Origin: a virus
Taxonomy: Duplodnaviria > Caudoviricetes
Direction: 5' to 3' (one strand)
IMG/VR virus record: IMGVR_UViG_3300030372_000660
Coordinates: 1-29,895 of that record
DNA length: 29,895 nt
Made by a program: the position numbers and the translations under genes. The notes under the pieces are model-generated. The model saw only the letters and a list, made by a program, of their open reading frames with translations, was not told where the DNA came from and made no database searches. Of this stretch, positions 9,992 through 22,581 are shown piece after piece; position 1 is the stretch's first letter; the number at the start of each line of letters is the position of its first letter.

Positions 9992-10801
9992 ATGTCAACT
10001 GAAGGCTGGGGTCGAGGCACATGGGGTGAAGGTCCGTGGGGTCAACCATCTCAACAGAATATATCTTTTTCTATTACAGGTGTAGGAAGTACAGGTGCTG
10101 TAGGTACTTGTGTTGCTTCAATACCTAAATCAGTAGATGTAACAGGATTTTCTGCAACAGGTAATCTAGGTGCTATAGCATCAGTTGTTGGTAATTCTAA
10201 TGTTACTGAAGCAGGAGTAGCAGGAACTACAGCATTAGGAACAATAACAGCATCTATACCAGTAACAGTAACAGAAACAGGTGTATCTGCTACAAGTGCA
10301 TTAGGTTCTATTGCATCAGTAATAGGTACTTCTAATGTAATAGAAACAGGAGTGGAAGGCACAGGAGCAGTAAATACTCTAGTTGCTTCTAACCCTATAA
10401 CATTTTCTATTACTGGTACAACATCTACAGGTGGAGTGGGTACTACAACAGCCGCAGGTGTAGCAATAACAGGAGTATCTGGAATTGCATCTACAACTTT
10501 CTTGGGTGATGAACAAGTTGTAATACCTATAACACAAGCTATTACAGGTGTAGCAGGTACTGGTAATATAGGAGAGGAACTTGTAACAGGTGAAGGTTTT
10601 GTAGTAGAAACAGGAGAAGTTGGTACTGGTTCAGTTGGTTCTGTAACTATATCCGCAGGAGCAACAGCACCAGTAACTAGTGTTATTGCTACTGGAGCAG
10701 TAACAAGTTTAATCGTATGGGGTGAAGTAGATGATGCTCAAACTCCAAATTATCAATCAGTAAACGACAGTCAAACTGTCGATTGGCAAGAGGTAGCATA
10801 G
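9992..10801 (+). CDS. Gly/Thr/Val-rich repetitive virion fibre-like protein
   Basis: N-terminal GWGRGTWGEGPWG followed by imperfect repeats of about 25-27 aa (xTGVxxTGAVG). Confidence 0.6.
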   Translation: MSTEGWGRGTWGEGPWGQPSQQNISFSITGVGSTGAVGTCVASIPKSVDVTGFSATGNLGAIASVVGNSNVTEAGVAGTTALGTITASIPVTVTETGVSATSALGSIASVIGTSNVIETGVEGTGAVNTLVASNPITFSITGTTSTGGVGTTTAAGVAITGVSGIASTTFLGDEQVVIPITQAITGVAGTGNIGEELVTGEGFVVETGEVGTGSVGSVTISAGATAPVTSVIATGAVTSLIVWGEVDDAQTPNYQSVNDSQTVDWQEVA

Positions 10802-10804
10802 AAA

Positions 10805-11743
10805 ATGGCAACTTATATAAATGACTTAAGACTAAAAGAAATATCTACAGGTGACGAGTCTGGAACATGGGGTACGAGTACGAACTCTAATTTAGAGCTT
10901 ATTGCGGAAGCATTTGGTTATGGTACAGAAGCTATAACTACTAACGCAGATACACATACTTCAACTATTGCAGATGGTGCAAGTGATCCAGTAAGAAGTA
11001 TGTATGTTAAGTATACAGGAGCTTTAGACTCTGATTGTACTATAACAATAGCACCAAATAATCTTTCAAAAGTTTGGATGATAGAAAATGCCACAACTGA
11101 TTCAGGAAGTTCTGGACCTTATAATATAATTATATCTCAAGGTTCTGGAGCTAATGTAACAATACCTAACTCAGCAGTTAAAGTAATATTTACTGATGGT
11201 GCTGGTTCAGGTGCGGCAGTAACTGATGCTTTTACAGATTTAGATGTAGGAAACACTTTAAAAATATCAGGCACAACTCCGACATTGACTATAGGAGATG
11301 CTGGTGCAGAGGATACCAAAATAGTCTTTGACGGCAATGCGCAAGACTTTTATGTTGGTCTTGACGATAGTGCTGATGACTTAGTTATTGGTAAGGGATC
11401 GGCAGTAGGTACAACACCAGCTTTATCTATAGATGAAAATATGAACGCTACTTTTGCTGATGGTACTTCTGATGTAGATATAGCATCACATGATGGCTCT
11501 AATGGTTTGAAACTAGGTGGTACTCTTGTGACAAGTACAGCCGCAGAACTTAATGTAATGGATGGTGGCACAGCCGCTAGTTCAGTAACACTTGCAGATG
11601 CCGATAGAGTTGTAATTAATGATGGCGGTACAATGAAACAAATAGCAATGACTACTCTTGATGCAGATAGGTTTACAATAACTACAACTGCACCTACTGA
11701 TGGAACAGGCAAAAGAACTGGTCATGTCTTTTATGTCGTATAA
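10805..11743 (+). CDS. Putative tail fibre / fibre-base protein
   Basis: TGDESGTWGTSTNxNL N-terminal anchor, TAAELN and DADRVVINDGGTMKQ fibre motifs, and a C-terminal TAP...GHVFY. Confidence 0.65.
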   Translation: MATYINDLRLKEISTGDESGTWGTSTNSNLELIAEAFGYGTEAITTNADTHTSTIADGASDPVRSMYVKYTGALDSDCTITIAPNNLSKVWMIENATTDSGSSGPYNIIISQGSGANVTIPNSAVKVIFTDGAGSGAAVTDAFTDLDVGNTLKISGTTPTLTIGDAGAEDTKIVFDGNAQDFYVGLDDSADDLVIGKGSAVGTTPALSIDENMNATFADGTSDVDIASHDGSNGLKLGGTLVTSTAAELNVMDGGTAASSVTLADADRVVINDGGTMKQIAMTTLDADRFTITTTAPTDGTGKRTGHVFYVV

Positions 11744-11759
11744 AAACAAAGAATAAAGA

Positions 11760-12683
11760 ATGGCTATTAAGATATGGGATGGTGACTCTTTAGAAACACC
11801 CAATCCAATAATAATAAAAGTAACCAATGGAAATCATAGGTTCGTAAATTTTGCTGTTGTAGTAGAAACAGATGGTTCATTGACTACATTTTATAATGCT
11901 ATTCATGCTACATCTTCAAATACAACAACAACTTTTAGTACAAGTAAATCGACAACAACAACTTTTGCAACAACAGTTTCTACTAGTAATAGTACAACAA
12001 CTACTTTTAATACGACTGCTTCTACAACAAGAACAACTGCTACAACTTTATCGACTACTACTACTTTTAGCACTAGCAAATCAACTACTACTACTTTTGG
12101 TACATCTAAAAGTACAACAACTAGTTATAATACAAATACAAGTGTGACTACAAATACAAATAGAAGCACATCTAAATCGACTACTACTACTTTTAATACA
12201 TCTTTTAATACAACTTTTACTACTGGTTTTGCAGATGAAAGCACTCAATTTGTTACAACTACTACATTAAGTACAACAAGAAGTACCTCAAAAAGCACAA
12301 CTACAACTTTTAATACAAGTTTCAATACAACTTTTTTGAGAAGCACTTCTACATCCAGAACCACAACAACTAATTTTAATACGACTTTATCTACTACAAC
12401 GACATTTAATACTAGTACAACAACATTAACTTCATTTAATACTACGACTACATTCGATACTGAAATATCTACTAGTAGAACTACGACTACAACTAATAGT
12501 ACAACTTTCAATACTACGACAACTACTACTACAACTTTTAATACTACAAAAACTACTGCAACTACAATTTTTGAAAGAACAACAGCAACAGGAAATACAG
12601 GAACTTTATTTCAAACACAAGTAGCATCTGCTAATGCACACAATGCTAGATATTGGGATGGAGATTCTTGGGAAGAGGATTAA
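11760..12683 (+). CDS. Thr-rich fibre-like protein A (predicted long beta-hairpin)
   Basis: 48-aa N cap and 34-aa C cap shared with 14475..15287; the core is built of STSKSTTTTF-like decads. Confidence 0.8.
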   Translation: MAIKIWDGDSLETPNPIIIKVTNGNHRFVNFAVVVETDGSLTTFYNAIHATSSNTTTTFSTSKSTTTTFATTVSTSNSTTTTFNTTASTTRTTATTLSTTTTFSTSKSTTTTFGTSKSTTTSYNTNTSVTTNTNRSTSKSTTTTFNTSFNTTFTTGFADESTQFVTTTTLSTTRSTSKSTTTTFNTSFNTTFLRSTSTSRTTTTNFNTTLSTTTTFNTSTTTLTSFNTTTTFDTEISTSRTTTTTNSTTFNTTTTTTTTFNTTKTTATTIFERTTATGNTGTLFQTQVASANAHNARYWDGDSWEED

Positions 12684-12698
12684 TAAGGAGAGTAAATA

Positions 12699-12854
12699 AT
12701 GGATATTCAGGGAGAGTTGAATAATCTTAAAGAAGCACACAAAACAAGTGAAAGAAGAACAGAAGAAACATTATCTATAATAATTGAGCATTTCAAAGAA
12801 ATGGAAGAAAGAATGGAAGCTCTAGAAGAAAAGGTAAAAGATAATGACTCTTGA
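12699..12854 (+). CDS. Small coiled-coil protein, 51 aa (absent from the ORF track)
   Basis: RBS AAGGAG at 12685-12690; translates as MDIQGELNNLKEAHKTSERRTEETLSIIIEHFKEMEERMEALEEKVKDNDS; overlaps the next start. Confidence 0.75.
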   Translation: MDIQGELNNLKEAHKTSERRTEETLSIIIEHFKEMEERMEALEEKVKDNDS

Positions 12855-13743
12855 AACATTAGCCTTTAATGATGTTCTAAATGATGATACAGCACATTTT
12901 TTTAAATCAGGAAATATAAGAAGATCATCTAAAAATAAAAGATTAAGTAAGTTACATCAGCTATTACCGGAAAAAGGTAATCATGAGACAAACCTAGAGT
13001 ATGACATTTGGTACGACTTTAAGAACGAACCTAAAATAAGAGGTTATGTCTACACAGATGTAATGACAAAATTTATTTATTTGAAACCAGCTTCTAGTAT
13101 GTTTTGTGAGTCAGTTATTAAAGAAGCTATAAAACAAGACATAACAGAAGAGGGTGAAGCAATATTCCAAGATATTCTAGATACTCCTAATGATAAATAT
13201 AAGTTAAGTAAATCTGATGCAGAATATCCTTATGTAATATTTCTTCCCGGAACTAACATATTGTTTGATGTTATAGACGAAGAAAGAATAAAAAATGCAG
13301 TTGAAAAAGATGGTGCTAAATTAAAACTACATCCCTTAACATCACCATTCGCTGTATCTTACCTAAAAGATCAATATGGAAAAGAAAATTTAATAGATAG
13401 AAAATTATCAGGGCATGATGTTTTAAAGAAATCTAAAATAGTAGGAACATTCAGTAATTCAGAGATGGGATTAGTTGCATTAGCACAAGGTAGCAAAGTA
13501 AATATCTTTGATAAAAGAAATATAGTAGGAAAAACATATACACCTATTTATAATGTATTGTGGAGAGAGAAAGAAGCTAATATAGAAGAACTAAAAAGAT
13601 TACTGTCTTGTGACTTCTGTGGTTTAGTTTCGTACTTATCAAAAAACCCAGAACAAAAAATAAAAAACTTCTGGGATTTTTTTAAGGATGTGATTCATGT
13701 TAAACCTAAAAAACCTAAAAGTCTTAATACTGGAAAAAAATAA
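12844..13743 (+). CDS. KpsS/KpsC-like (GT-B) glycosyltransferase-like protein
   Basis: LKLHP and VGTFSNSEMGLVALAQGSKV resemble the K.HP and T.NS..G.EAL..GK.V motifs of capsule biosynthesis (CMP-sugar) transferases. Confidence 0.55.
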   Translation: MTLETLAFNDVLNDDTAHFFKSGNIRRSSKNKRLSKLHQLLPEKGNHETNLEYDIWYDFKNEPKIRGYVYTDVMTKFIYLKPASSMFCESVIKEAIKQDITEEGEAIFQDILDTPNDKYKLSKSDAEYPYVIFLPGTNILFDVIDEERIKNAVEKDGAKLKLHPLTSPFAVSYLKDQYGKENLIDRKLSGHDVLKKSKIVGTFSNSEMGLVALAQGSKVNIFDKRNIVGKTYTPIYNVLWREKEANIEELKRLLSCDFCGLVSYLSKNPEQKIKNFWDFFKDVIHVKPKKPKSLNTGKK

Positions 13744-14431
13744 TCTTTTAAAGCTAACAACTAATTCATTAGATCAGAATAATCCAGAGATAAAATACAA
13801 GGTAATAACTAAAGATAAAGTATCTAATAGTATTATTGGAACTGCATTATCAAATATTAAAGAAACTACACTTGTTATAAAAAGTGGTTTAGTTTTAAAT
13901 TTAACTAATAAAGATTTACCAGCAAAAAGAAAGTTAAATAAATATGATATTTGTGTAAGTAGACAAGCTGTATTCATAGACCATGATAGAATAAAAGTAC
14001 ACTATCCTTATGTTAAGGGTAAGTTGCATAAAAAGATATTAGACCTGTCTATATTCTTTATTAATCCCAAAAGATGGGATCAGATTCCTGACAAAGATAC
14101 AGGAATAATTTCAGGCAAAAAGAAATTAATAATGCCTAGATATATGAATCATAAAGATGATGTTTTATTTTCAGAAGAATCTACTGCGGCTATTGATGCT
14201 TTGCACTACGGAGTATTAGGAGAACAGGCTTCTGTATATAATTATGTAAATGCTATTGAGAAAAATGAAATAAATGTTTTAGAAACTTATGCTTATTGTT
14301 TTGATAAATTGCTTCCTTATATAAAAGGTTTACCTAAGAAAGAAAAAGATCGTGTTAAATATTTAGGAAACAAAACAAAAATTAGAATATCAAACACTAG
14401 AGAAAAACTACATGAGTTAAGGAATCTTTAA
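13697..14431 (+). CDS. Divergent GT-A (GT8-like) protein
   Basis: SIFFINPKRW resembles the GT8 GvmliN...W motif; also MPRYMN and LHY. The expected DxD is replaced (LVIKSG). Confidence 0.35.
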   Translation: MLNLKNLKVLILEKNNLLKLTTNSLDQNNPEIKYKVITKDKVSNSIIGTALSNIKETTLVIKSGLVLNLTNKDLPAKRKLNKYDICVSRQAVFIDHDRIKVHYPYVKGKLHKKILDLSIFFINPKRWDQIPDKDTGIISGKKKLIMPRYMNHKDDVLFSEESTAAIDALHYGVLGEQASVYNYVNAIEKNEINVLETYAYCFDKLLPYIKGLPKKEKDRVKYLGNKTKIRISNTREKLHELRNL

Positions 14432-14434
14432 TGG

Positions 14435-14467
14435 CTCGTTAACTTTTACAGAAATTAATTAACGAGG
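14435..14467 (+). promoter_or_regulatory. Hairpin overlapping the RBS of Thr-rich protein B
   Basis: CTCGTTAA (14435-14442) pairs with TTAACGAG (14459-14466); the SD GAGG lies at 14464-14467 and the ATG at 14475. Confidence 0.45.
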
Positions 14468-14474
14468 TTTTAGA

Positions 14475-15287
14475 ATGGCAATAAAGATTTGGGATGGTAG
14501 TTCGATTGGAACACCAAATCCTATAATTGTAAAAGTTACTGATGGAAGTTTGCGTTTTGTCAACTTTGCTGTTGTTATAGAAACAGATGGTTCTCTTACA
14601 ACTTTCTACAATGCTATAAAACAAACTACAAGAAACACAACAACCACATTTAGTACAACTAATTCAACGACTACAACTTTTAACACAACTCGTTCTACAA
14701 CAACATCAACATCTACAACTAATAGCACTACGACTACTTTCAATACAAGTAAGTCAACTACTACTACTTTTAATACAACTAGATCGACTACGACTTCGTT
14801 TAACACTACAACAACTTTTGGAACTTCTAGAACGACTTCTTTTACAACTTCGTTCAATACAAGTTTCACAACTACTTTTAGTACAAACCTTCCGGGTAAA
14901 GGAGGAGGTTCTCAGAATACTTCTCGTACTACATCTCAAGGTACTTCTCGAACTACTTCTGTTACGACTTCGTTCAACACTAGTAGATCGACTGCCACAA
15001 GTGTAAGTACGACTACAACTTTTTCAACAAGCAAAAGCACAACTACTACTTTTGGAACAAGTAATAGCACTACGACAACTTTTAACACGACAACTACATT
15101 TGACACTACTGTTGAAACAACTGCTAGTACGACTACTACATTTAATACAACGACTACTACAGCTACAACAATATTTGAAAGAGTTACAGCTACAGGAAAT
15201 ACAGGCTCATTAGTTGCAACAGAAGTAGCTTCTGCTAACGCACATAATTCTAGATATTGGGATGGTGATTCATGGGAGGAAGATTAG
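14475..15287 (+). CDS. Thr-rich fibre-like protein B (paralog of 11760..12683)
   Basis: Same caps (MAIKIWDG...TDGSLTTFYNAI; TTIFER.TATGNTG...RYWDGDSWEED), a shorter core and a central NLPGKGGGSQN loop. Confidence 0.8.
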   Translation: MAIKIWDGSSIGTPNPIIVKVTDGSLRFVNFAVVIETDGSLTTFYNAIKQTTRNTTTTFSTTNSTTTTFNTTRSTTTSTSTTNSTTTTFNTSKSTTTTFNTTRSTTTSFNTTTTFGTSRTTSFTTSFNTSFTTTFSTNLPGKGGGSQNTSRTTSQGTSRTTSVTTSFNTSRSTATSVSTTTTFSTSKSTTTTFGTSNSTTTTFNTTTTFDTTVETTASTTTTFNTTTTTATTIFERVTATGNTGSLVATEVASANAHNSRYWDGDSWEED

Positions 15288-15879: not shown

Positions 15880-16332
15880 GTGATGGCTAAAAAAATTATA
15901 ATAGATAATATCTATTTGAAAGAAAGTAATATAGAAACACCAAATCAGGTAGAAATTTTTGGCAAAGAAATTGCTGAAGTTAAATGTGACTTGTCTTGTC
16001 AATCTGATTTTAAAAAAATATTTTTTGATGAAAAAGAAACTTATGAAGTTGGTTTGTCTTTTCAGATAGCTTCGAGTTGTAAAGTTGATCAATATAATTT
16101 GCACTTATATACACTTAACTTTATACAATCTGGTCTATTTAGATTAGAAGGTTATAAAAAAGAAGATGAAGTTCTAGAAGTATTAGCTGTAGAAATTCCT
16201 AACATACTATTTCCTTATGCTAGGCTTCATGCAGAATTAATTACCAAAAGCACAGGACTTCATCCAGTCTTGATGCAAGAGATAAACTTTAAAGAAATCT
16301 ATTACAAAGAAATCGGCAAAAAGTACAAATAA
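15880..16332 (+). CDS. secB: SecB-like protein-export chaperone
   Basis: IYLKExxIExPN, YEVxL, QSGLFxL, LAVExPNILFPYAR and GxxPVLMxxINF are characteristic SecB motifs; 150 aa. Confidence 0.85.
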   Translation: MMAKKIIIDNIYLKESNIETPNQVEIFGKEIAEVKCDLSCQSDFKKIFFDEKETYEVGLSFQIASSCKVDQYNLHLYTLNFIQSGLFRLEGYKKEDEVLEVLAVEIPNILFPYARLHAELITKSTGLHPVLMQEINFKEIYYKEIGKKYK

Positions 16333-17030
16333 TGTTTACTTTTGAAGAGCTAATAGAACCTTTACCTTTAGATGATTTTTACAATATTTATTACAAAAAA
16401 AGATCGTGTGTAATAAAAGGTAATGATTTTAGAAAAGATTTATTTTCTAAGATAATTACTTGGCAAAAGTTTTCTAGATATATAAACAATGATAGAGCTG
16501 TTTCTGGTTTACAAGCTATCTTGCCTGATGGAAGAAAGCTGTGCATGGAAAAATTAAATTTATATAAATCTAAAAAACCTGCATGGTGTAAAAAAGATTA
16601 TTATGAAAAGAAGTTTTTGCATGATATATGGAATAATCATGGCTCAATAATTTTAACTAAAGCATCTTTACTTACTCCTGAGATATCTAGTATTGCAGGA
16701 GCTATTGAGGAACATTTTGGTGGCGCGGCTGATGCACATTTTTATTGTAGCTATAGTGAAAAATCTAATTCATTTAAAGAACACGCAGATTTAGATGATA
16801 ATTTTTTAGTTCATGCTAATGGAAGTGTTAGATGGACTGTATATAATTCTTTAGAAAATAAAGAAGATGATATAACAGAACATGATCTAACAGTAGGTGA
16901 TTTACTTTATATACCGAAAGGTTTGAAACATAAAGCTATACCTTTATCAAAAAGAATATCTATATCCGTACCATTGAATCAAGGTATAACAGCAAAGCCA
17001 TTGGATAGAACAGTTTATGACTTTTCTTAA
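16332..17030 (+). CDS. JmjC / cupin_4 2OG-Fe(II) oxygenase (RoxA/YcfD-like)
   Basis: HxD (HAD..DNF..H..GxxxW) and LxxGDLLYIPKGxxH supply the facial triad. Confidence 0.85.
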   Translation: MFTFEELIEPLPLDDFYNIYYKKRSCVIKGNDFRKDLFSKIITWQKFSRYINNDRAVSGLQAILPDGRKLCMEKLNLYKSKKPAWCKKDYYEKKFLHDIWNNHGSIILTKASLLTPEISSIAGAIEEHFGGAADAHFYCSYSEKSNSFKEHADLDDNFLVHANGSVRWTVYNSLENKEDDITEHDLTVGDLLYIPKGLKHKAIPLSKRISISVPLNQGITAKPLDRTVYDFS

Positions 17031-17991
17031 TCCTGCTTCAATAGCACTTGTAGGAGCTTCTACAAAGACTCTTAAAGAAGCTATATCTCAAAACAAGTAT
17101 TGGGGTGCGGCTTTAAGAGATTCGCTCTTAGAAAGCTTTACAGGAGATATTCCTTTATATCTTATTACTAAACATGATTCATATGATGATTTACCAGCAT
17201 CTCCTGATTTAGCAATAGTTGCAGTACCAAACATTATTGAAGAAGTAACTAAGATTGTAAATAAAGGTACAGATAAGATTATAGTTATCAATACTTTAGA
17301 TGCCTTTACAGAAAGAAAGTTATATAAAATTGTAAAAAACAAAGCAACAATTCTTGGTCCTAATTGTTTAGGTGTTCATTGTGATGCTTATTCTACTTTT
17401 CTTTTAGGAAGAAAAACTACTGGAGATATAGGTTTAGTTACACAAAGTGGAGGTGTTGGTGAAGCACTATTAGAAAATGTTCCAAACTTGAGAACAGTAA
17501 TAAGTGTAGGTAGCGCACAACATTATACAATAGAAGATGCAATACAATCATTGAGGGAAGAACCTAATATAAAAAGAATTGCATTGTATTCAGAAAGTTA
17601 TATACCAGAAGATGAAGATATAATTACTCTAATGCCTAAATATAATGAGGCAAGTGTTAAAGCTGTTTATGATCATACAGGTTTGACTCTAGAAAAAAAT
17701 AATGCAATCAATAACTTAAATGATTTTATAAAAGTTTTAAACGAAAAAGTTTTAGTATGTAGTAATTCAGGAGGTTGGCTTTGTTTATATGCTGGTCAAA
17801 ATCCTAATCAAAATATGACATTGATTGACACATCTGCTTGTGGCAATCCTTTGTCTAAAGCTATAGAAATGCAAGAAGGATACACTAGAGCTATTATATT
17901 TTTTAATAAATATGATGACTATCCAGAAGAACGATTAGATGCAAGCAAGCTTTCTATACCTTACGAAATAATAAAAAGTAGTGATTTATAA
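17017..17991 (+). CDS. CoA-binding protein, acyl-CoA synthetase (NDP-forming) alpha-subunit-like
   Basis: PxSIALVGAS, PDLAIVAVP, ILGPNCLG, GDIGLVTQSGG, HTG (phospho-His loop) and NSGG motifs; no ATP-grasp domain. Confidence 0.8.
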   Translation: MTFLNPASIALVGASTKTLKEAISQNKYWGAALRDSLLESFTGDIPLYLITKHDSYDDLPASPDLAIVAVPNIIEEVTKIVNKGTDKIIVINTLDAFTERKLYKIVKNKATILGPNCLGVHCDAYSTFLLGRKTTGDIGLVTQSGGVGEALLENVPNLRTVISVGSAQHYTIEDAIQSLREEPNIKRIALYSESYIPEDEDIITLMPKYNEASVKAVYDHTGLTLEKNNAINNLNDFIKVLNEKVLVCSNSGGWLCLYAGQNPNQNMTLIDTSACGNPLSKAIEMQEGYTRAIIFFNKYDDYPEERLDASKLSIPYEIIKSSDL

Positions 17992-19311: not shown

Positions 19312-19661
19312 TGAATGAAGCAATAGAGTTTATCAATCAAGTAGGATTTCCCATAGCAAGTGCATTGGGTTTAGGTATATTTATATGGAAACTAATAAAT
19401 AGAATTATTGATGGCATGGAACAAAAGATTGATGTAGTTGACGAAAAAGTAGATGCCAGTCTAAATGCTATGGAAGAAAGACTAAGCACCAAACTAGATG
19501 CTCAACATGGGATTATAGTGGCTCTCATAGATCGTGTTAGAGCTTTAGATAATCAAACTATCAGACAAGATGTGTTATTGAAAACATTACTTGGCGCACC
19601 AAACTTAATAGAAATTGATAAAATAGCAAAGGCAGATAGAGATGACCAACGCAAAGATTAG
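19311..19661 (+). CDS. Single-TM coiled-coil membrane protein (holin-like candidate)
   Basis: GTG start; INQVGFPIA...FIWK TM segment followed by a coiled coil. Confidence 0.55.
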   Translation: MNEAIEFINQVGFPIASALGLGIFIWKLINRIIDGMEQKIDVVDEKVDASLNAMEERLSTKLDAQHGIIVALIDRVRALDNQTIRQDVLLKTLLGAPNLIEIDKIAKADRDDQRKD

Positions 19662-20082
19662 TTTATTGATTTTATTTGCAAGCAATTTACTAGCAGACGA
19701 AATATCATTTAAATTTAAAAGTCCTAGCTTTTCTGGTTTTAATACTTCTTCACATTACTTAACTATCGAGAATCAAGAAAATACTAGAAAGCAATCTATT
19801 GAAGATGAAATAGAAGCATACAAAGATGAGTTAGCTAGAGATGCTGAAAATACTACACTTGCTAGATTTATCCGTAACTTAGAAAGCAGAATTTATGCAC
19901 AGCTATCAAGACAAATGGTAGAACAACTATTTGGTGAAGAAAAATCTACAGAAGGTAAACTGACCTTAGAAGGTAATACTATTGAGTACAAGGTGGAGAA
20001 TGAACTTATCACTCTTACAATCATTGATGAACTTGGTGGACAGACGATTATTTCTGTTCCTATCGGTGAGTTTACTTTCTAG
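19642..20082 (+). CDS. csgF: Curli assembly component CsgF-like
   Basis: Sec signal peptide, then FKFKSPSFSG (CsgF F.F.NP.FGG), F..NLESRIYAQLS and LFGE; adjacent to csgG. Confidence 0.8.
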   Translation: MTNAKISLLILFASNLLADEISFKFKSPSFSGFNTSSHYLTIENQENTRKQSIEDEIEAYKDELARDAENTTLARFIRNLESRIYAQLSRQMVEQLFGEEKSTEGKLTLEGNTIEYKVENELITLTIIDELGGQTIISVPIGEFTF

Positions 20083-20842
20083 TTGTGCTTCACATAATTT
20101 ATTAGAAGGTAATGGTATACCTTATGTAGTAATCAAAAGTTCTTCAATAATGGATTTACAAAATGAAGAACTCTTAAATCTAAAACCAGCAAAGAGAAAA
20201 CCAGTAATAGCTATATATCCTAATAGCTTTAGAGATCACACAGGACAAAGAAAATCTAATGGTTCGTTTGCATTATTTAGTACAGCTATAACACAAGCTC
20301 CAGAGGCTTACTTAATAAGAGCCTTGAAACACGCATCTAATGGTCAATTCTTTTCTGTAGCAGAAAGAGTTGGATTAGCAGATTTAACAAAAGAAAGACA
20401 ACTTATTAGAAGTACAAGAGAATCTTTTGAAGAAGATTCAAGAGTAAAACCACTATTGCTTGCAGGACTCTTGATGCAAGGTGGCGTATTAAGTATAGAC
20501 ACTAATGTAAGAAGTGGCGGTGCAGGAGCAAGATATTTAGGCATTGGAAGCTCAAAAGAATATAGAGAAGATTTAATAACCATATCTTTAAGATTAGTGT
20601 CTGTATCTACAGGTGAAGTTCTTATTGAAGTCTTGACAACTAAAAGTATATTATCTGTTGGTTTGTCACAGGATATATTTAGATTTCTAGATGAATCTAC
20701 AAGGTTGATTGAAGTAGAAGGGGGAGTTTCGGCAAATGAAAGTACATCTATTGCTTTACAAAAAGCTATAGAAGATAGCGTACTTGAAATTATTAAAATC
20801 GGAATAGATAAAAAATATTGGGTATATAAAAATGAACTTTAA
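20027..20842 (+). CDS. csgG: Curli secretion channel CsgG-like lipoprotein
   Basis: ATG 20027 gives a 19-aa signal with lipobox LSS-C. Motifs FRDxTGQRK, FSTAITQ, ERxGLxDLTKERQLIR and LRLVSVSTGEVL. Confidence 0.9.
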   Translation: MNLVDRRLFLFLSVSLLSSCASHNLLEGNGIPYVVIKSSSIMDLQNEELLNLKPAKRKPVIAIYPNSFRDHTGQRKSNGSFALFSTAITQAPEAYLIRALKHASNGQFFSVAERVGLADLTKERQLIRSTRESFEEDSRVKPLLLAGLLMQGGVLSIDTNVRSGGAGARYLGIGSSKEYREDLITISLRLVSVSTGEVLIEVLTTKSILSVGLSQDIFRFLDESTRLIEVEGGVSANESTSIALQKAIEDSVLEIIKIGIDKKYWVYKNEL

Positions 20843-21557
20843 TAAAATTACAGCACTTGTTATTTTGACTTTACTTGTTTATGCAATAGGTACTAATGCT
20901 GATGACAACGAAATCTATGTAGATCAAATTGGTGCAACAGCCAACATAGACTTAGAGCAACTAGGTTCTGGAAACATTATAGGTGGATTACAGTCAGCAC
21001 ATGGAAGTATGACTCCATTTGATCTCGATGGCGCAACTATGACATTAGATGTGAACCAAATAGGTAATAATAACAAGATGTTAGGCGATATTAATGCAGA
21101 TACATTTACAGGATTGTTTGATTTTGATGGTGATACAAATACTTATACAATACAAATCGATCCAACAAATACAAACTCAGCAGACAATAGTAATGTAAAT
21201 GTAAATGTGGATGGTAGTACGAATACGATGACATTAGACTTGGCTACTAATGCTTTAGCTAGCGGTGCTGATGTCGATACGATAGTTCAAGGAGATTCAA
21301 ATACTGTTCATGTTGATTTAGATATAGATTCAGCAACTAATTATATTGATCTGGATGGTGATTCTAATACAGTAGACTACAATGGTGACGGATACGCATC
21401 CGGCTACTTCAAGCTAGAACATGATGGTAATACGAGGAGTTTTGATATTGATCAACAATCTACGCAAGACAATGACTGGTTACGCATTATTTCTTCAGGT
21501 AATGCTGGGTCTGTGTGCGTACAGCAAGATGACTCCGGTACTAGCACAAGTTGTTGA
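20832..21557 (+). CDS. Curlin-like (CsgA/CsgB-type) secreted beta-solenoid protein
   Basis: Signal peptide; repeats such as NEIYVDQIG, IDLEQLGSGN, LDVNQIGNNN, VQGDSN and LDGDSN; acidic; C-terminal Cys pair. Confidence 0.65.
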   Translation: MNFNKITALVILTLLVYAIGTNADDNEIYVDQIGATANIDLEQLGSGNIIGGLQSAHGSMTPFDLDGATMTLDVNQIGNNNKMLGDINADTFTGLFDFDGDTNTYTIQIDPTNTNSADNSNVNVNVDGSTNTMTLDLATNALASGADVDTIVQGDSNTVHVDLDIDSATNYIDLDGDSNTVDYNGDGYASGYFKLEHDGNTRSFDIDQQSTQDNDWLRIISSGNAGSVCVQQDDSGTSTSC

Positions 21558-22581
21558 TATAGGAAACATTACAGAACTAAATGGAATTACTAGAGTTGTA
21601 AGAGATAAACCATACGAAAGTGTTATAGACTTTTCTTTGAACTCTATGGATCGCCTAGAAACAGCACAAGGTAGAATGGGTGTAACTTTTCAGGATGATA
21701 CTACTATAAGGCTTACTGAACATAGTAATGTGATAATTGACGAGTTTGTTTACGATCCTAATCAAACTCAAAACTCAGCAATGGCTTTAAATTTTATCAA
21801 GGGAACTGGTCGGTTCATATCCAGTAAGACTAAAAAGCGTGTACCTAAAGATAAGATTAAGATACGAACAAATAGTGCTACAGTAGGAATAAGGGGGACA
21901 GACTTCACAATAACTGTATCTGAAACAGGTGAAGCATTGATTATACTTTTACCTGATGAGTTTGGTGAAAGTTCAGGAGAGATAGTAGTAACAACAGCGT
22001 TGGGTCAAGTAGTTCTAAATAAACCATATCAAGCTACTACAGTATATAACCTAGAAAGTATGCCTACTGATCCTATTACTTTAGATATTGATTTGAATAT
22101 GATTGACAATATGTTGATTGTTAATCCACCAGATAGAGTTGAAGAAGAGTCAGAAGAAGGTTCATCAGCAGGAGATAATATACTTGATGTAGATTTTCTT
22201 GAGTTTGATGAACTAGAACAGGATGCTCTAGCAGAAGATGATTTAGAGTATACAGAGCTTGATATAGATTATTTAGCGGCAGATTTTCTTCAAGACTTGC
22301 TAGACATAATACAAGAAGTAGACGAACTGTCTAAAGCAGATAAAGCTCTAGAGGGTGAAGGTATTAGGGGAACTGCTATTGGTTATGATTCTAATACGCA
22401 AATATCTAGTTTTGTTACAGATTCAGATGTGAAGCTAATTAGACAGGTAGAAGATAAGTTAGAAGTAAAAGTATCTAGAGAGGGTTCTTATAGCATAAGG
22501 ATTGATCAAGAGGGGAAGGTCAATAGTGTTACTGTCAATGGTGGAAGTAGTTCAATTATAAATATTAAGCAAGGTAGTTAA
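21472..22581 (+). CDS. FecR-domain protein, exported (start uncertain; track start 21421)
   Basis: FecR signature D.L.T..G...F.D.T...L.E.S, I.T..ATVGIRGTDF and GEI.V; acidic DFLEFDEL linker; hydrophobic leader from ATG 21472. Confidence 0.75.
   Translation: MTGYALFLQVMLGLCAYSKMTPVLAQVVDIGNITELNGITRVVRDKPYESVIDFSLNSMDRLETAQGRMGVTFQDDTTIRLTEHSNVIIDEFVYDPNQTQNSAMALNFIKGTGRFISSKTKKRVPKDKIKIRTNSATVGIRGTDFTITVSETGEALIILLPDEFGESSGEIVVTTALGQVVLNKPYQATTVYNLESMPTDPITLDIDLNMIDNMLIVNPPDRVEEESEEGSSAGDNILDVDFLEFDELEQDALAEDDLEYTELDIDYLAADFLQDLLDIIQEVDELSKADKALEGEGIRGTAIGYDSNTQISSFVTDSDVKLIRQVEDKLEVKVSREGSYSIRIDQEGKVNSVTVNGGSSSIINIKQGS

What the first reader, a model, noticed from the sequence alone, without database searches (positions are those of the whole stretch)
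11760..15287. Two Thr-rich proteins whose halves match in antiparallel register: predicted giant beta-hairpin ribbons
Seen in sequence (counted by hand): protein A is 48-aa cap + 107-aa arm + 12-aa loop (GFADESTQFVTT, nt 12225-12260) + 106-aa arm + 34-aa cap. Protein B is 48 + 89 + 11 (NLPGKGGGSQN, nt 14886-14918) + 88 + 34. Numbering outward from the loop, the rare bulky residues of the two arms coincide with no gaps. In A: 3 F/L, 7 F/R, 11 F/K, 17 K/F, 21 R/F, 27 V/R, 33 Y/R, 39 K/F, 43 F/L, 49 K/F, 59 L/F, 65 R/F, 73 F/R, 83 V/F, 93 K/F, 97 F/K. In B: 3 F/R, 7 F/Q, 11 F/R, 15 F/V, 19 R/F, 23 F/R, 29 F/V, 35 R/F, 39 F/K, 45 K/F, 49 F/N, 55 N/F, 65 R/V, 75 N/F. A few Phe face Thr. All listed pairs fall at odd positions, so on one face, leaving a Thr/Ser/Asn face. 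The paralogs differ by exactly 18 residues in each arm. Inference: these are not disordered mucin-like tracts but long antiparallel hairpins zipped by cross-strand Phe-Lys/Arg (cation-pi) pairs, about 35 and 29 nm long at 0.33 nm per residue. The two caps would meet at the base and a variable loop would form the tip. I know of no described phage fibre with this design.
Basis: partly seen in the sequence, partly recalled or inferred. Interest (0 to 1): 0.92.

Follow-up and report, generated by a model that had tools for sequence, protein, structure and literature searches.

The report
Self-zipping giant hairpin phage fibres
Two threonine-rich proteins of a marine phage have halves that match residue by residue when one is read backwards, and relatives up to five times longer keep the match, so each chain likely zips back on itself into one very long, thin hairpin that probably serves as a host-sensing stalk on the tail fibre.

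Summary
Observation confirmed. All 30 listed pairs are present, and the proposed register is the best antiparallel one in both proteins. In 118 of 122 full-length relatives (214-1,578 aa) the best register sits at an offset fixed by the two caps; 29 of 29 anchorable further relatives agree. Pairing is code-like: aromatic faces Arg/Lys/His/Gln, Thr faces Thr, and Lys-Thr occurs once against 185 expected. The DNA is not palindromic. AlphaFold pairs only the base of the arms.

New context: the upstream fibre gene ends in a conserved tag (96 of 118). Many relatives carry a variable ~88-residue knob at the tip. A possible glycosyltransferase gene follows. Mirror-coded hairpins with other caps precede that gene in cultured phages (Vibrio KVP40 gene 0254, Caulobacter Lullwater gene 041), which makes the idea testable.

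The closest known structure is the T4 gp37 needle, which is trimeric and iron-bound. This scan has reported the same design before on other DNA. I found it in no paper.

The parts
10805..11743 (+). Tail-fibre-like gene (312 aa) directly upstream of A; inferred docking partner
   Evidence: tblastn to genes annotated as putative tail/tail fibre in CRP-901, CRP-902 and HTVC023P; weak PHROG hits of unknown function
11678..11740 (+). C-terminal tag of the fibre (Thr-x-Ala-Pro ... Gly-His-x-Trp/Phe-Tyr-Val), shared by otherwise unrelated upstream proteins
   Evidence: present upstream of 96 of 118 relatives with enough flank; different fibre bodies end in it
11760..12683 (+). Gene A, 307 aa, mirror-coded Thr-rich protein
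11760..11903 (+). A N-terminal cap, three short beta-hairpin-like repeats (clearest in the long clade)
   Evidence: alignments; the AlphaFold model of the 80%-identical cap of B has pLDDT 81-87
11904..12224 (+). A outgoing arm, 107 aa
12225..12260 (+). A tip loop (acidic Asp-Glu type)
   Evidence: the same loop type sits at the centre in 21 of 22 relatives
12261..12578 (+). A returning arm, 106 aa
12579..12680 (+). A C-terminal cap, 34 aa
12699..12854 (+). Small (51 aa) charged, coiled-coil-like ORF; small charged ORFs lie at the same place in KVP40 (0255) and DLP6
   Evidence: read from the sequence; no PHROG hit
12844..13743 (+). Conserved companion gene, 299 aa; possible Capsule_synth-like glycosyltransferase (a lead only)
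   Evidence: beside 57 of 65 representatives; Atlas feature hit 0.95 to a cluster with PF05159 on 13% of members; Pfam E = 0.098 for one relative; no PDB match
13697..14431 (+). Second conserved companion gene, 244 aa, unassigned; looks GT-A-like by eye only
   Evidence: beside 55 of 65 representatives; no meaningful Pfam, NCBIfam or PDB match
14475..15287 (+). Gene B, 270 aa, paralogue with a Gly-Lys-Gly turn; cap 14475-14618, arm 14619-14885, loop 14886-14918, arm 14919-15182, cap 15183-15284
15880..16332 (+). SecB-like chaperone gene, found near 13 of 65 representatives; may keep the beta-rich chain soluble (speculation)
   Evidence: Pfam PF02556, E 1.7e-21

Best explanation
Each gene encodes a Thr-rich protein whose two halves match residue by residue in antiparallel register (aromatic opposite Arg/Lys/His/Gln, Thr opposite Thr), so the chain likely folds back into one long two-stranded beta-hairpin that would act as a thin stalk, predicted to dock by its N-terminal cap on the tip of the tail fibre and likely to present a variable host-binding loop or knob at its far end. 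Shown: the register, the pairing code, matched length changes, gene context and the variable tip. Predicted: paired strands at the base (AlphaFold). Inferred: the sparse aromatic-cation pairs on one face stabilise the ribbon and act as a bar code that stops a repetitive Thr chain from slipping out of register; length is tuned by matched indels (about 29-35 nm here, up to about 240 nm in relatives at 0.33 nm per residue); the three-repeat cap lets one chain sit on a trimeric fibre end; the companion genes glycosylate the Thr/Ser/Asn face. My odds: antiparallel pairing of the arms about 0.9, virion appendage about 0.8, monomer on a fibre tip about 0.55, glycosylation about 0.4.
For: Cap-fixed register best in 118 of 122 relatives and in 29 of 29 anchorable further ones. 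Pair table from 65 representatives: Phe-Arg 821 vs 158 expected, His-Tyr 127 vs 14, Gly-Trp 39 vs 1.6, Lys-Thr 1 vs 185, Phe-Thr 92 vs 924; 1,678 of 1,874 Lys/Arg on that face pair with an aromatic; the other face shows only weak preferences. Own arm scores 0.84 vs 0.21 for swapped arms. Two-sided class changes 29 vs 0.28 expected. About 630 gap-free pairs in a 1,354-aa member. AlphaFold strands 48-81 and 203-240 centre on the predicted register sum of 286. Fibre tag upstream in 96 of 118; the same tag-plus-cap pair occurs with a non-Thr body in phage ZF40. Hypervariable tip knob of about 88 aa. Lullwater and BL199 hairpins directly follow an annotated tail fibre gene.
Against: AlphaFold is not confident for most of the arms (pLDDT below 50 at 76-130 and 152-208), and its full-length rows were chosen for register consistency (22 of 53), so it is not an independent test. 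A two-sequence run gave pLDDT 30. About eight members have unequal arms. The own arm was strictly best in only 25 of 34 short and 20 of 31 long representatives, and 11 of 65 missed p < 0.01 in the strict shuffle; 54 class changes were one-sided. Gene B has no fibre tag upstream. In KVP40 the gene lies among hypothetical and nucleotide-metabolism genes, not beside an annotated fibre. The companion gene also occurs without a Thr-rich neighbour in 11 of 74 loci and in DLP6. There is no virion proteomics or EM.
Confidence: 0.6

Rival explanations
1. The hairpins are real, but three of them intertwine into a six-stranded needle like the T4 gp37 tip, with the aromatic-cation layers replacing the iron sites.
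For: Same fold-back topology as gp37 (passages of PMC6957217; PMC9659904). A lone two-stranded ribbon has no core, and all bulky residues lie on one face.
Against: The cap has three internal repeats, which suggests a pseudo-threefold monomer. No collar-domain match by Pfam or fold search. Arg is the commonest bulky partner, which is awkward for a buried core (inference).
Confidence: 0.2
2. The hairpin is real but is not a host-binding tip of the tail fibre: it is a head or neck whisker, a drag or decoy filament, or mainly a carrier for glycans.
For: The KVP40-type genes have another cap and lie away from annotated tail genes. Gene B lacks the upstream tag. The link to the companion gene holds across podoviruses, T7-like and T4-like phages.
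Against: Fibre tag upstream in 96 of 118; direct adjacency to tail fibre genes in Caulobacter phages; hypervariable tip on a conserved stalk.
Confidence: 0.11
3. The arms pair between chains: two copies form a domain-swapped antiparallel duplex of double length with a cap at each end, or A pairs with B.
For: Sequence covariation cannot tell intra- from intermolecular pairing. Earlier scan notes describe two-gene duplexes with this code (not checked by me).
Against: The centre is a Gly/Lys/Asp/Pro turn or a compact knob in nearly all members. A-B cross scores are 0.10 and 0.22 against 0.73 and 0.64 for self, and no A x B offset stands out.
Confidence: 0.06
4. These are disordered mucin-like linkers, and the mirror pattern is a by-product of repeat periodicity or DNA-level inversion.
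For: 73-74% Thr/Ser/Asn in the arms; low AlphaFold and Atlas confidence; a database annotates two Vibrio-phage examples as cell wall mannoprotein.
Against: Register fixed by the caps over a 7-fold length range; 0-1 Pro per protein core; partners are complementary, not identical; only 34-40% DNA reverse-complement match and no long inverted repeat about the loop.
Confidence: 0.03

Closest known systems
Needle (D10-D11) of the T4 long tail fibre tip, gp37, and its lambda Stf relatives
   Same: The chain runs out and back: residues 811-881 and 1010-1026 form the base, and the receptor-binding head is at the turn (passages of PMC6957217 and PMC9659904).
   Different: gp37 is a six-stranded trimer held by seven His-bound irons and is part of the fibre chain. 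Here a separate gene has Thr arms of about 60 to 735 residues, set by an aromatic-cation code, with no His-iron motif in A or B and no sequence or fold match.
Separate adhesins capping a trimeric fibre
   Same: Separate gene right after the fibre, a small attachment cap, variable distal loops.
   Different: By recall gp38 has a helical cap and a polyglycine sandwich; this cap is all-beta in the model and the body is a Thr ribbon.
Beta-hairpin 'tentacles' of intramolecular and Alteromonas A5 tail-fibre chaperones
   Same: A long polar beta-hairpin of variable length in a gene next to the fibre (passages of PMC10579305).
   Different: The longest is about 88 angstrom and projects from an alpha-helical trimer; no helix is modelled here and the arms are several to nearly thirty times longer.
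Mucin-like Ser/Thr-rich glycoprotein linkers
   Same: Thr/Ser richness, variable length, possible glycosylation by neighbouring enzymes.
   Different: Almost no Pro, strict two-face alternation and long-range antiparallel complementarity.

Membership tests
T4 gp37-type needle | Fold-back chain, both ends at the base, tip in the middle | tested here: met
   register and central loop; base strands in the model
T4 gp37-type needle | His-bound iron sites along the needle | tested here: not met
   A has one His at the arm base, B none in the arms; where relatives have His it faces Tyr (127 vs 14 expected)
T4 gp37-type needle | Collar-fold base domain | tested here: inconclusive
   no Pfam hit; no match with E <= 0.001 in PDB or BFVD, best VIA Z 4.5, on a half-confident model
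T4 gp37-type needle | Homotrimer, six strands | not tested
gp38-type fibre-capping adhesin (features recalled) | Separate gene directly after the fibre gene | tested here: met
   A and 96 of 118 relatives follow the tagged gene; not true for B
gp38-type fibre-capping adhesin (features recalled) | Monomer bound to the trimer tip | not tested
   complex prediction not available
gp38-type fibre-capping adhesin (features recalled) | Helical cap and polyglycine sandwich | tested here: not met
   no helix in the model; Gly is 8 of 307 and 14 of 270 residues
Tentacle chaperones (IMC/A5 gp9) | Alpha-helical body bearing the hairpin | tested here: not met
   caps modelled as strands only
Mucin-like disordered linker | Pro-rich, no long-range residue pairing | tested here: not met
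   0-1 Pro in the core; long-range register
Mucin-like disordered linker | O-glycosylation | not testable with these tools
   only a weak lead for the neighbouring gene
Beta-solenoid / curlin-type repeat | Fixed repeat length with like-on-like parallel stacking | tested here: not met
   bulky spacing is irregular (4, 6 or 10); in the antiparallel register like pairs are avoided (Phe-Phe 8 vs 86, Arg-Arg 4 vs 61)
Capsule_synth (PF05159) glycosyltransferase, for gene 12844-13743 | Profile match above the curated cut-off | tested here: inconclusive
   best E = 0.098, below cut-off; Atlas 0.95 to a cluster with 13% PF05159

The most novel reading that the evidence does not exclude
Phages use a protein analogue of a nucleic-acid stem-loop: one chain zips into a free-standing two-stranded beta-ribbon of 170 to about 1,600 residues (up to about 240 nm, several capsid diameters), held in register by an aromatic-cation versus Thr-Thr code. 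It plugs onto different virion sites through interchangeable caps, carries exchangeable tip knobs, and is glycosylated by a dedicated phage enzyme pair. The module is spread across marine podoviruses, T7-like and T4-like phages.
Probability: 0.4. Interest if true: 0.95.

Novelty: categorically new. Interest (0 to 1): 0.88.

Why it matters
It would be a natural, length-programmable beta-ribbon in which pairing over hundreds of residues is written in a simple residue code. That speaks directly to how strand register is specified and how long an isolated hairpin can be. It reassigns proteins now dismissed as disordered, mucin-like or hypothetical in marine HTVC023P-like phages, and suggests a way for short-tailed phages in dilute seawater to extend their reach. 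The short members here (214-310 aa) and the cultured examples (168-217 aa) make it testable by ordinary biochemistry and phage genetics.

Tried and rejected
DNA palindrome or mirror repeat as the cause: rejected. A-B heteroduplex: no support. AlphaFold on two sequences: uninformative; the Atlas model was also poor (pLDDT 0.22). Fold searches found nothing significant; the top rows were long hairpins of pore or collar barrels at Z <= 4.5, which shows neither a match nor novelty. PDB sequence searches with the cap, tag, knob and both companion alignments found nothing credible. The word-index search gave 1 relative. The 50%-cluster search gave 5 cap fragments and 5 unexamined weak hits. The bacterial/archaeal genome scan gave only weak motif hits (E 3e-6 or weaker), which I did not inspect. 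HTVC023P and HTVC027P showed no mirror-coded Thr-rich ORF in the regions read. Tip Cys pairs were tested as direct cross-strand partners and are not in exact register. Ten literature searches found no description; one search was swamped by yeast papers. Ice-binding by the Thr face was considered and not tested.
Full report
Setting. The window is the structural region of a phage: GroES, major capsid, two SU10-type adaptors, lysozyme, CsgF/CsgG-like genes. Its capsid is 62% identical to pelagiphages HTVC023P/027P and 68% to MinM2. A preprint describes HTVC023P-type phages as podoviruses and gives pelagiphage capsids of 55-69 nm (10.1101/2019.12.14.876532, passages read). The host of this phage is not established.

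Observation. The proposed register is the best antiparallel one: A 11 Phe/Tyr-Lys/Arg pairs against 4 next, B 7 against 4. For all bulky pairs, B leads by only 11 to 10. Word shuffles reached the score 0 of 2,000 times for each protein; stricter block shuffles 0 and 10 of 1,000. There is no long inverted repeat about the loop and only 34-40% base complementarity in the implied register (no null computed), so the symmetry is a property of the protein.

Relatives. Cap-based scans gave 122 distinct full-length proteins of 214-1,578 aa, including A and B, that passed my cap patterns. Many are close relatives; partial ORFs and some divergent or variant ones (e.g. L047, L048, L052, L084, L085, L087, L088, L150) were dropped by the pattern. 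Of 175 registers scanned per protein, the best lay at a fixed offset from the two caps in 118 of 122: 7 in 59, 8 in 55, 6 in 4, each offset tracking a cap subtype. A second set, mostly found through the neighbouring gene rather than the caps, gave offset 7 in 29 of 29 anchorable proteins (33 examined, 4 lacked my anchor motif; one, L300, repeats L149). With the loop defined by motif alone (88 of 122), arm lengths correlate at r = 0.9986 among 32 short representatives.

Exceptions. Six unequal-arm members (L102, L014, L094, L106, L087, L084) differ from a longer sibling by 0-3 bases plus one in-frame deletion; five of those siblings were shown to be symmetric, the one for L087 and L084 (L085). 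They are assembly collapses or recent losses; I did not test which. L140 (change near the loop) and L058 (57-nt loss, 99 mismatches) are less easily dismissed. A Cys/His-rich subclade needs 9-19 single-residue bulges per protein, and L174 needs 20 unpaired residues; 11 of 31 long representatives zip with none (scoring scheme my own).

The code. In 65 representatives, the face carrying bulky residues shows Phe-Arg 821 (158 expected), Tyr-Arg 515 (100), Phe-Gln 269 (41), Phe-Lys 213 (37), His-Tyr 127 (14), Gly-Trp 39 (1.6) and Thr-Thr 3,760 (2,406), against Lys-Thr 1 (185), Arg-Arg 4 (61) and Phe-Phe 8 (86). The other face is about 80% Thr/Ser/Asn/Ala with weak preferences. The face and register were chosen with the aromatic-basic score, and kin share pairs, so these counts are inflated. 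Arm swaps score 0.21 against 0.84 for self, although the own arm was strictly best in only 45 of 65. Among 42 same-length sibling pairs, 29 positions changed class on both sides (0.28 expected) and 54 on one side; some two-sided cases are local motif shifts. Same-face partners at constant i+j is the geometry of an antiparallel strand pair (established knowledge); that these pairs are cation-pi contacts is inference.

Structure. AlphaFold on a 74-row alignment gave confident caps (block means 81-87 for the N-cap, 68-84 at the C-end) and strands 48-81 and 203-240, centred on the predicted sum of 286; the distal arms are below 50. I saw the strand ranges, not the coordinates. The 22 full-length rows were picked for register consistency, so this is weak support. 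No fold match was significant. Several BFVD rows cover about 44 residues at about 2 angstrom rmsd with E near or above 1, a hint that the cap is a common small phage module.

Context and function. The gene upstream ends in a conserved tag of about 21 residues in 96 of 118 cases. Of the 22 misses, 18 are B-type genes (at least 9 are second copies in the same locus), and 3 of the other 4 show the tag under a looser pattern. Unrelated fibre bodies and a 74-aa adaptor carry it. Phage ZF40 has the tag followed by a similar three-repeat cap on a non-Thr body. I infer a generic tag-and-cap docking module, with one pseudo-threefold cap on a trimer; this could not be modelled. Many relatives replace the short turn with a knob of about 88 aa that has a few fixed aromatics and variable loops, with no known match, as expected of a receptor-binding tip. 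Two companion genes follow in 57 and 55 of 65 representatives. Conversely, 63 of 74 evaluable loci of the first companion have a Thr-rich ORF upstream and 11 do not (78 loci from the best 80 of 318 matches, partly redundant). Its glycosyltransferase reading is a lead only.

Cultured examples. Following the companion gene led to mirror-coded proteins with different caps: KVP40 gene 0254 (AAQ64323.1; 9 pairs against 5 next; 0 of 5,000 shuffles) and Lullwater gene 041 (ATI16348.1; 11 against 9; 1 of 5,000; directly after the tail fibre gene). BL199, QD01, VS1, 6E35.1a, D479 and F86 show similar ladders (no shuffles run). Cr30 has only a weak 116-aa candidate, DLP6 none, and the Quill ORF is truncated. 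That is 8 clear cases among the 11 records I read, of 45 with the companion gene.

Comparison and novelty. The nearest known structure is the T4 gp37 needle: a fold-back chain with a receptor head, but a six-stranded, iron-bound trimer (passages of PMC6957217 and PMC9659904). It may work alike; it is not a member, since the iron motif is absent. Chaperone tentacles reach about 88 angstrom (passages of PMC10579305). gp38 features are recalled. All other papers were seen as search listings only, and no supplements were read. Ten searches found no description of this design; the library lacks most subscription journals. Earlier notes of this scan report the same code in 11 findings on other DNA, as single chains and as two-gene duplexes. 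They are not independent support. I had noted the gp37 comparison before reading them, but took the two paper ids from them.

Verdict. The role as a monomeric, fibre-docked, host-sensing stalk is my best mechanism (0.6). Interest 0.88.

Noticed in passing
window 19642-22581: CsgF-, CsgG-, curlin-like and FecR genes form a curli-secretion-like cassette in this podovirus.
   Followed up: no
window 15880-17991: SecB-like, JmjC and CoA-ligase-like genes travel with a subset of the short hairpin genes (13, 9 and 7 of 65 representatives).
   Followed up: partly
window 9992-10801: A 269-aa Gly/Thr/Val repeat protein with a Trp-Gly N-terminal motif lies upstream of the fibre; no family hit.
   Followed up: no
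L062:2647-6105, L063:3811-6105: Two complementary repeats (an 18-residue Cys-bearing unit and a 19-residue His-bearing unit) pair His with Tyr, need a bulge per unit, and swap arms between relatives; the Cys mostly face Thr, role unknown.
   Followed up: partly
L336:1409-1951, L337:1340-1945: In Vibrio phages D479 and F86 the hairpin ORF is missing from the annotation, which lists small fragments there instead.
   Followed up: yes
L337, L338, L141, L142 tip loops: A Cys pair five residues apart flanks the turn, perhaps a disulphide, but not in exact cross-strand register.
   Followed up: partly
L294:1-5853: A 5'-cut fragment of 1,951 aa shows that the family exceeds the longest complete member.
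   Followed up: no
L282-L290, L292, L293: The companion gene has no Thr-rich neighbour in the flank; in the six loci inspected it lies near a terminase-small-subunit-like gene.
   Followed up: partly
L030:3675-6120, L277:1494-5877: Family members split across frames; assembly error or real break not determined.
   Followed up: no
L250:3-1650: Phage DLP6 has an unannotated 550-aa open frame ending in a Hint-like domain (by eye) where the hairpin would be.
   Followed up: no
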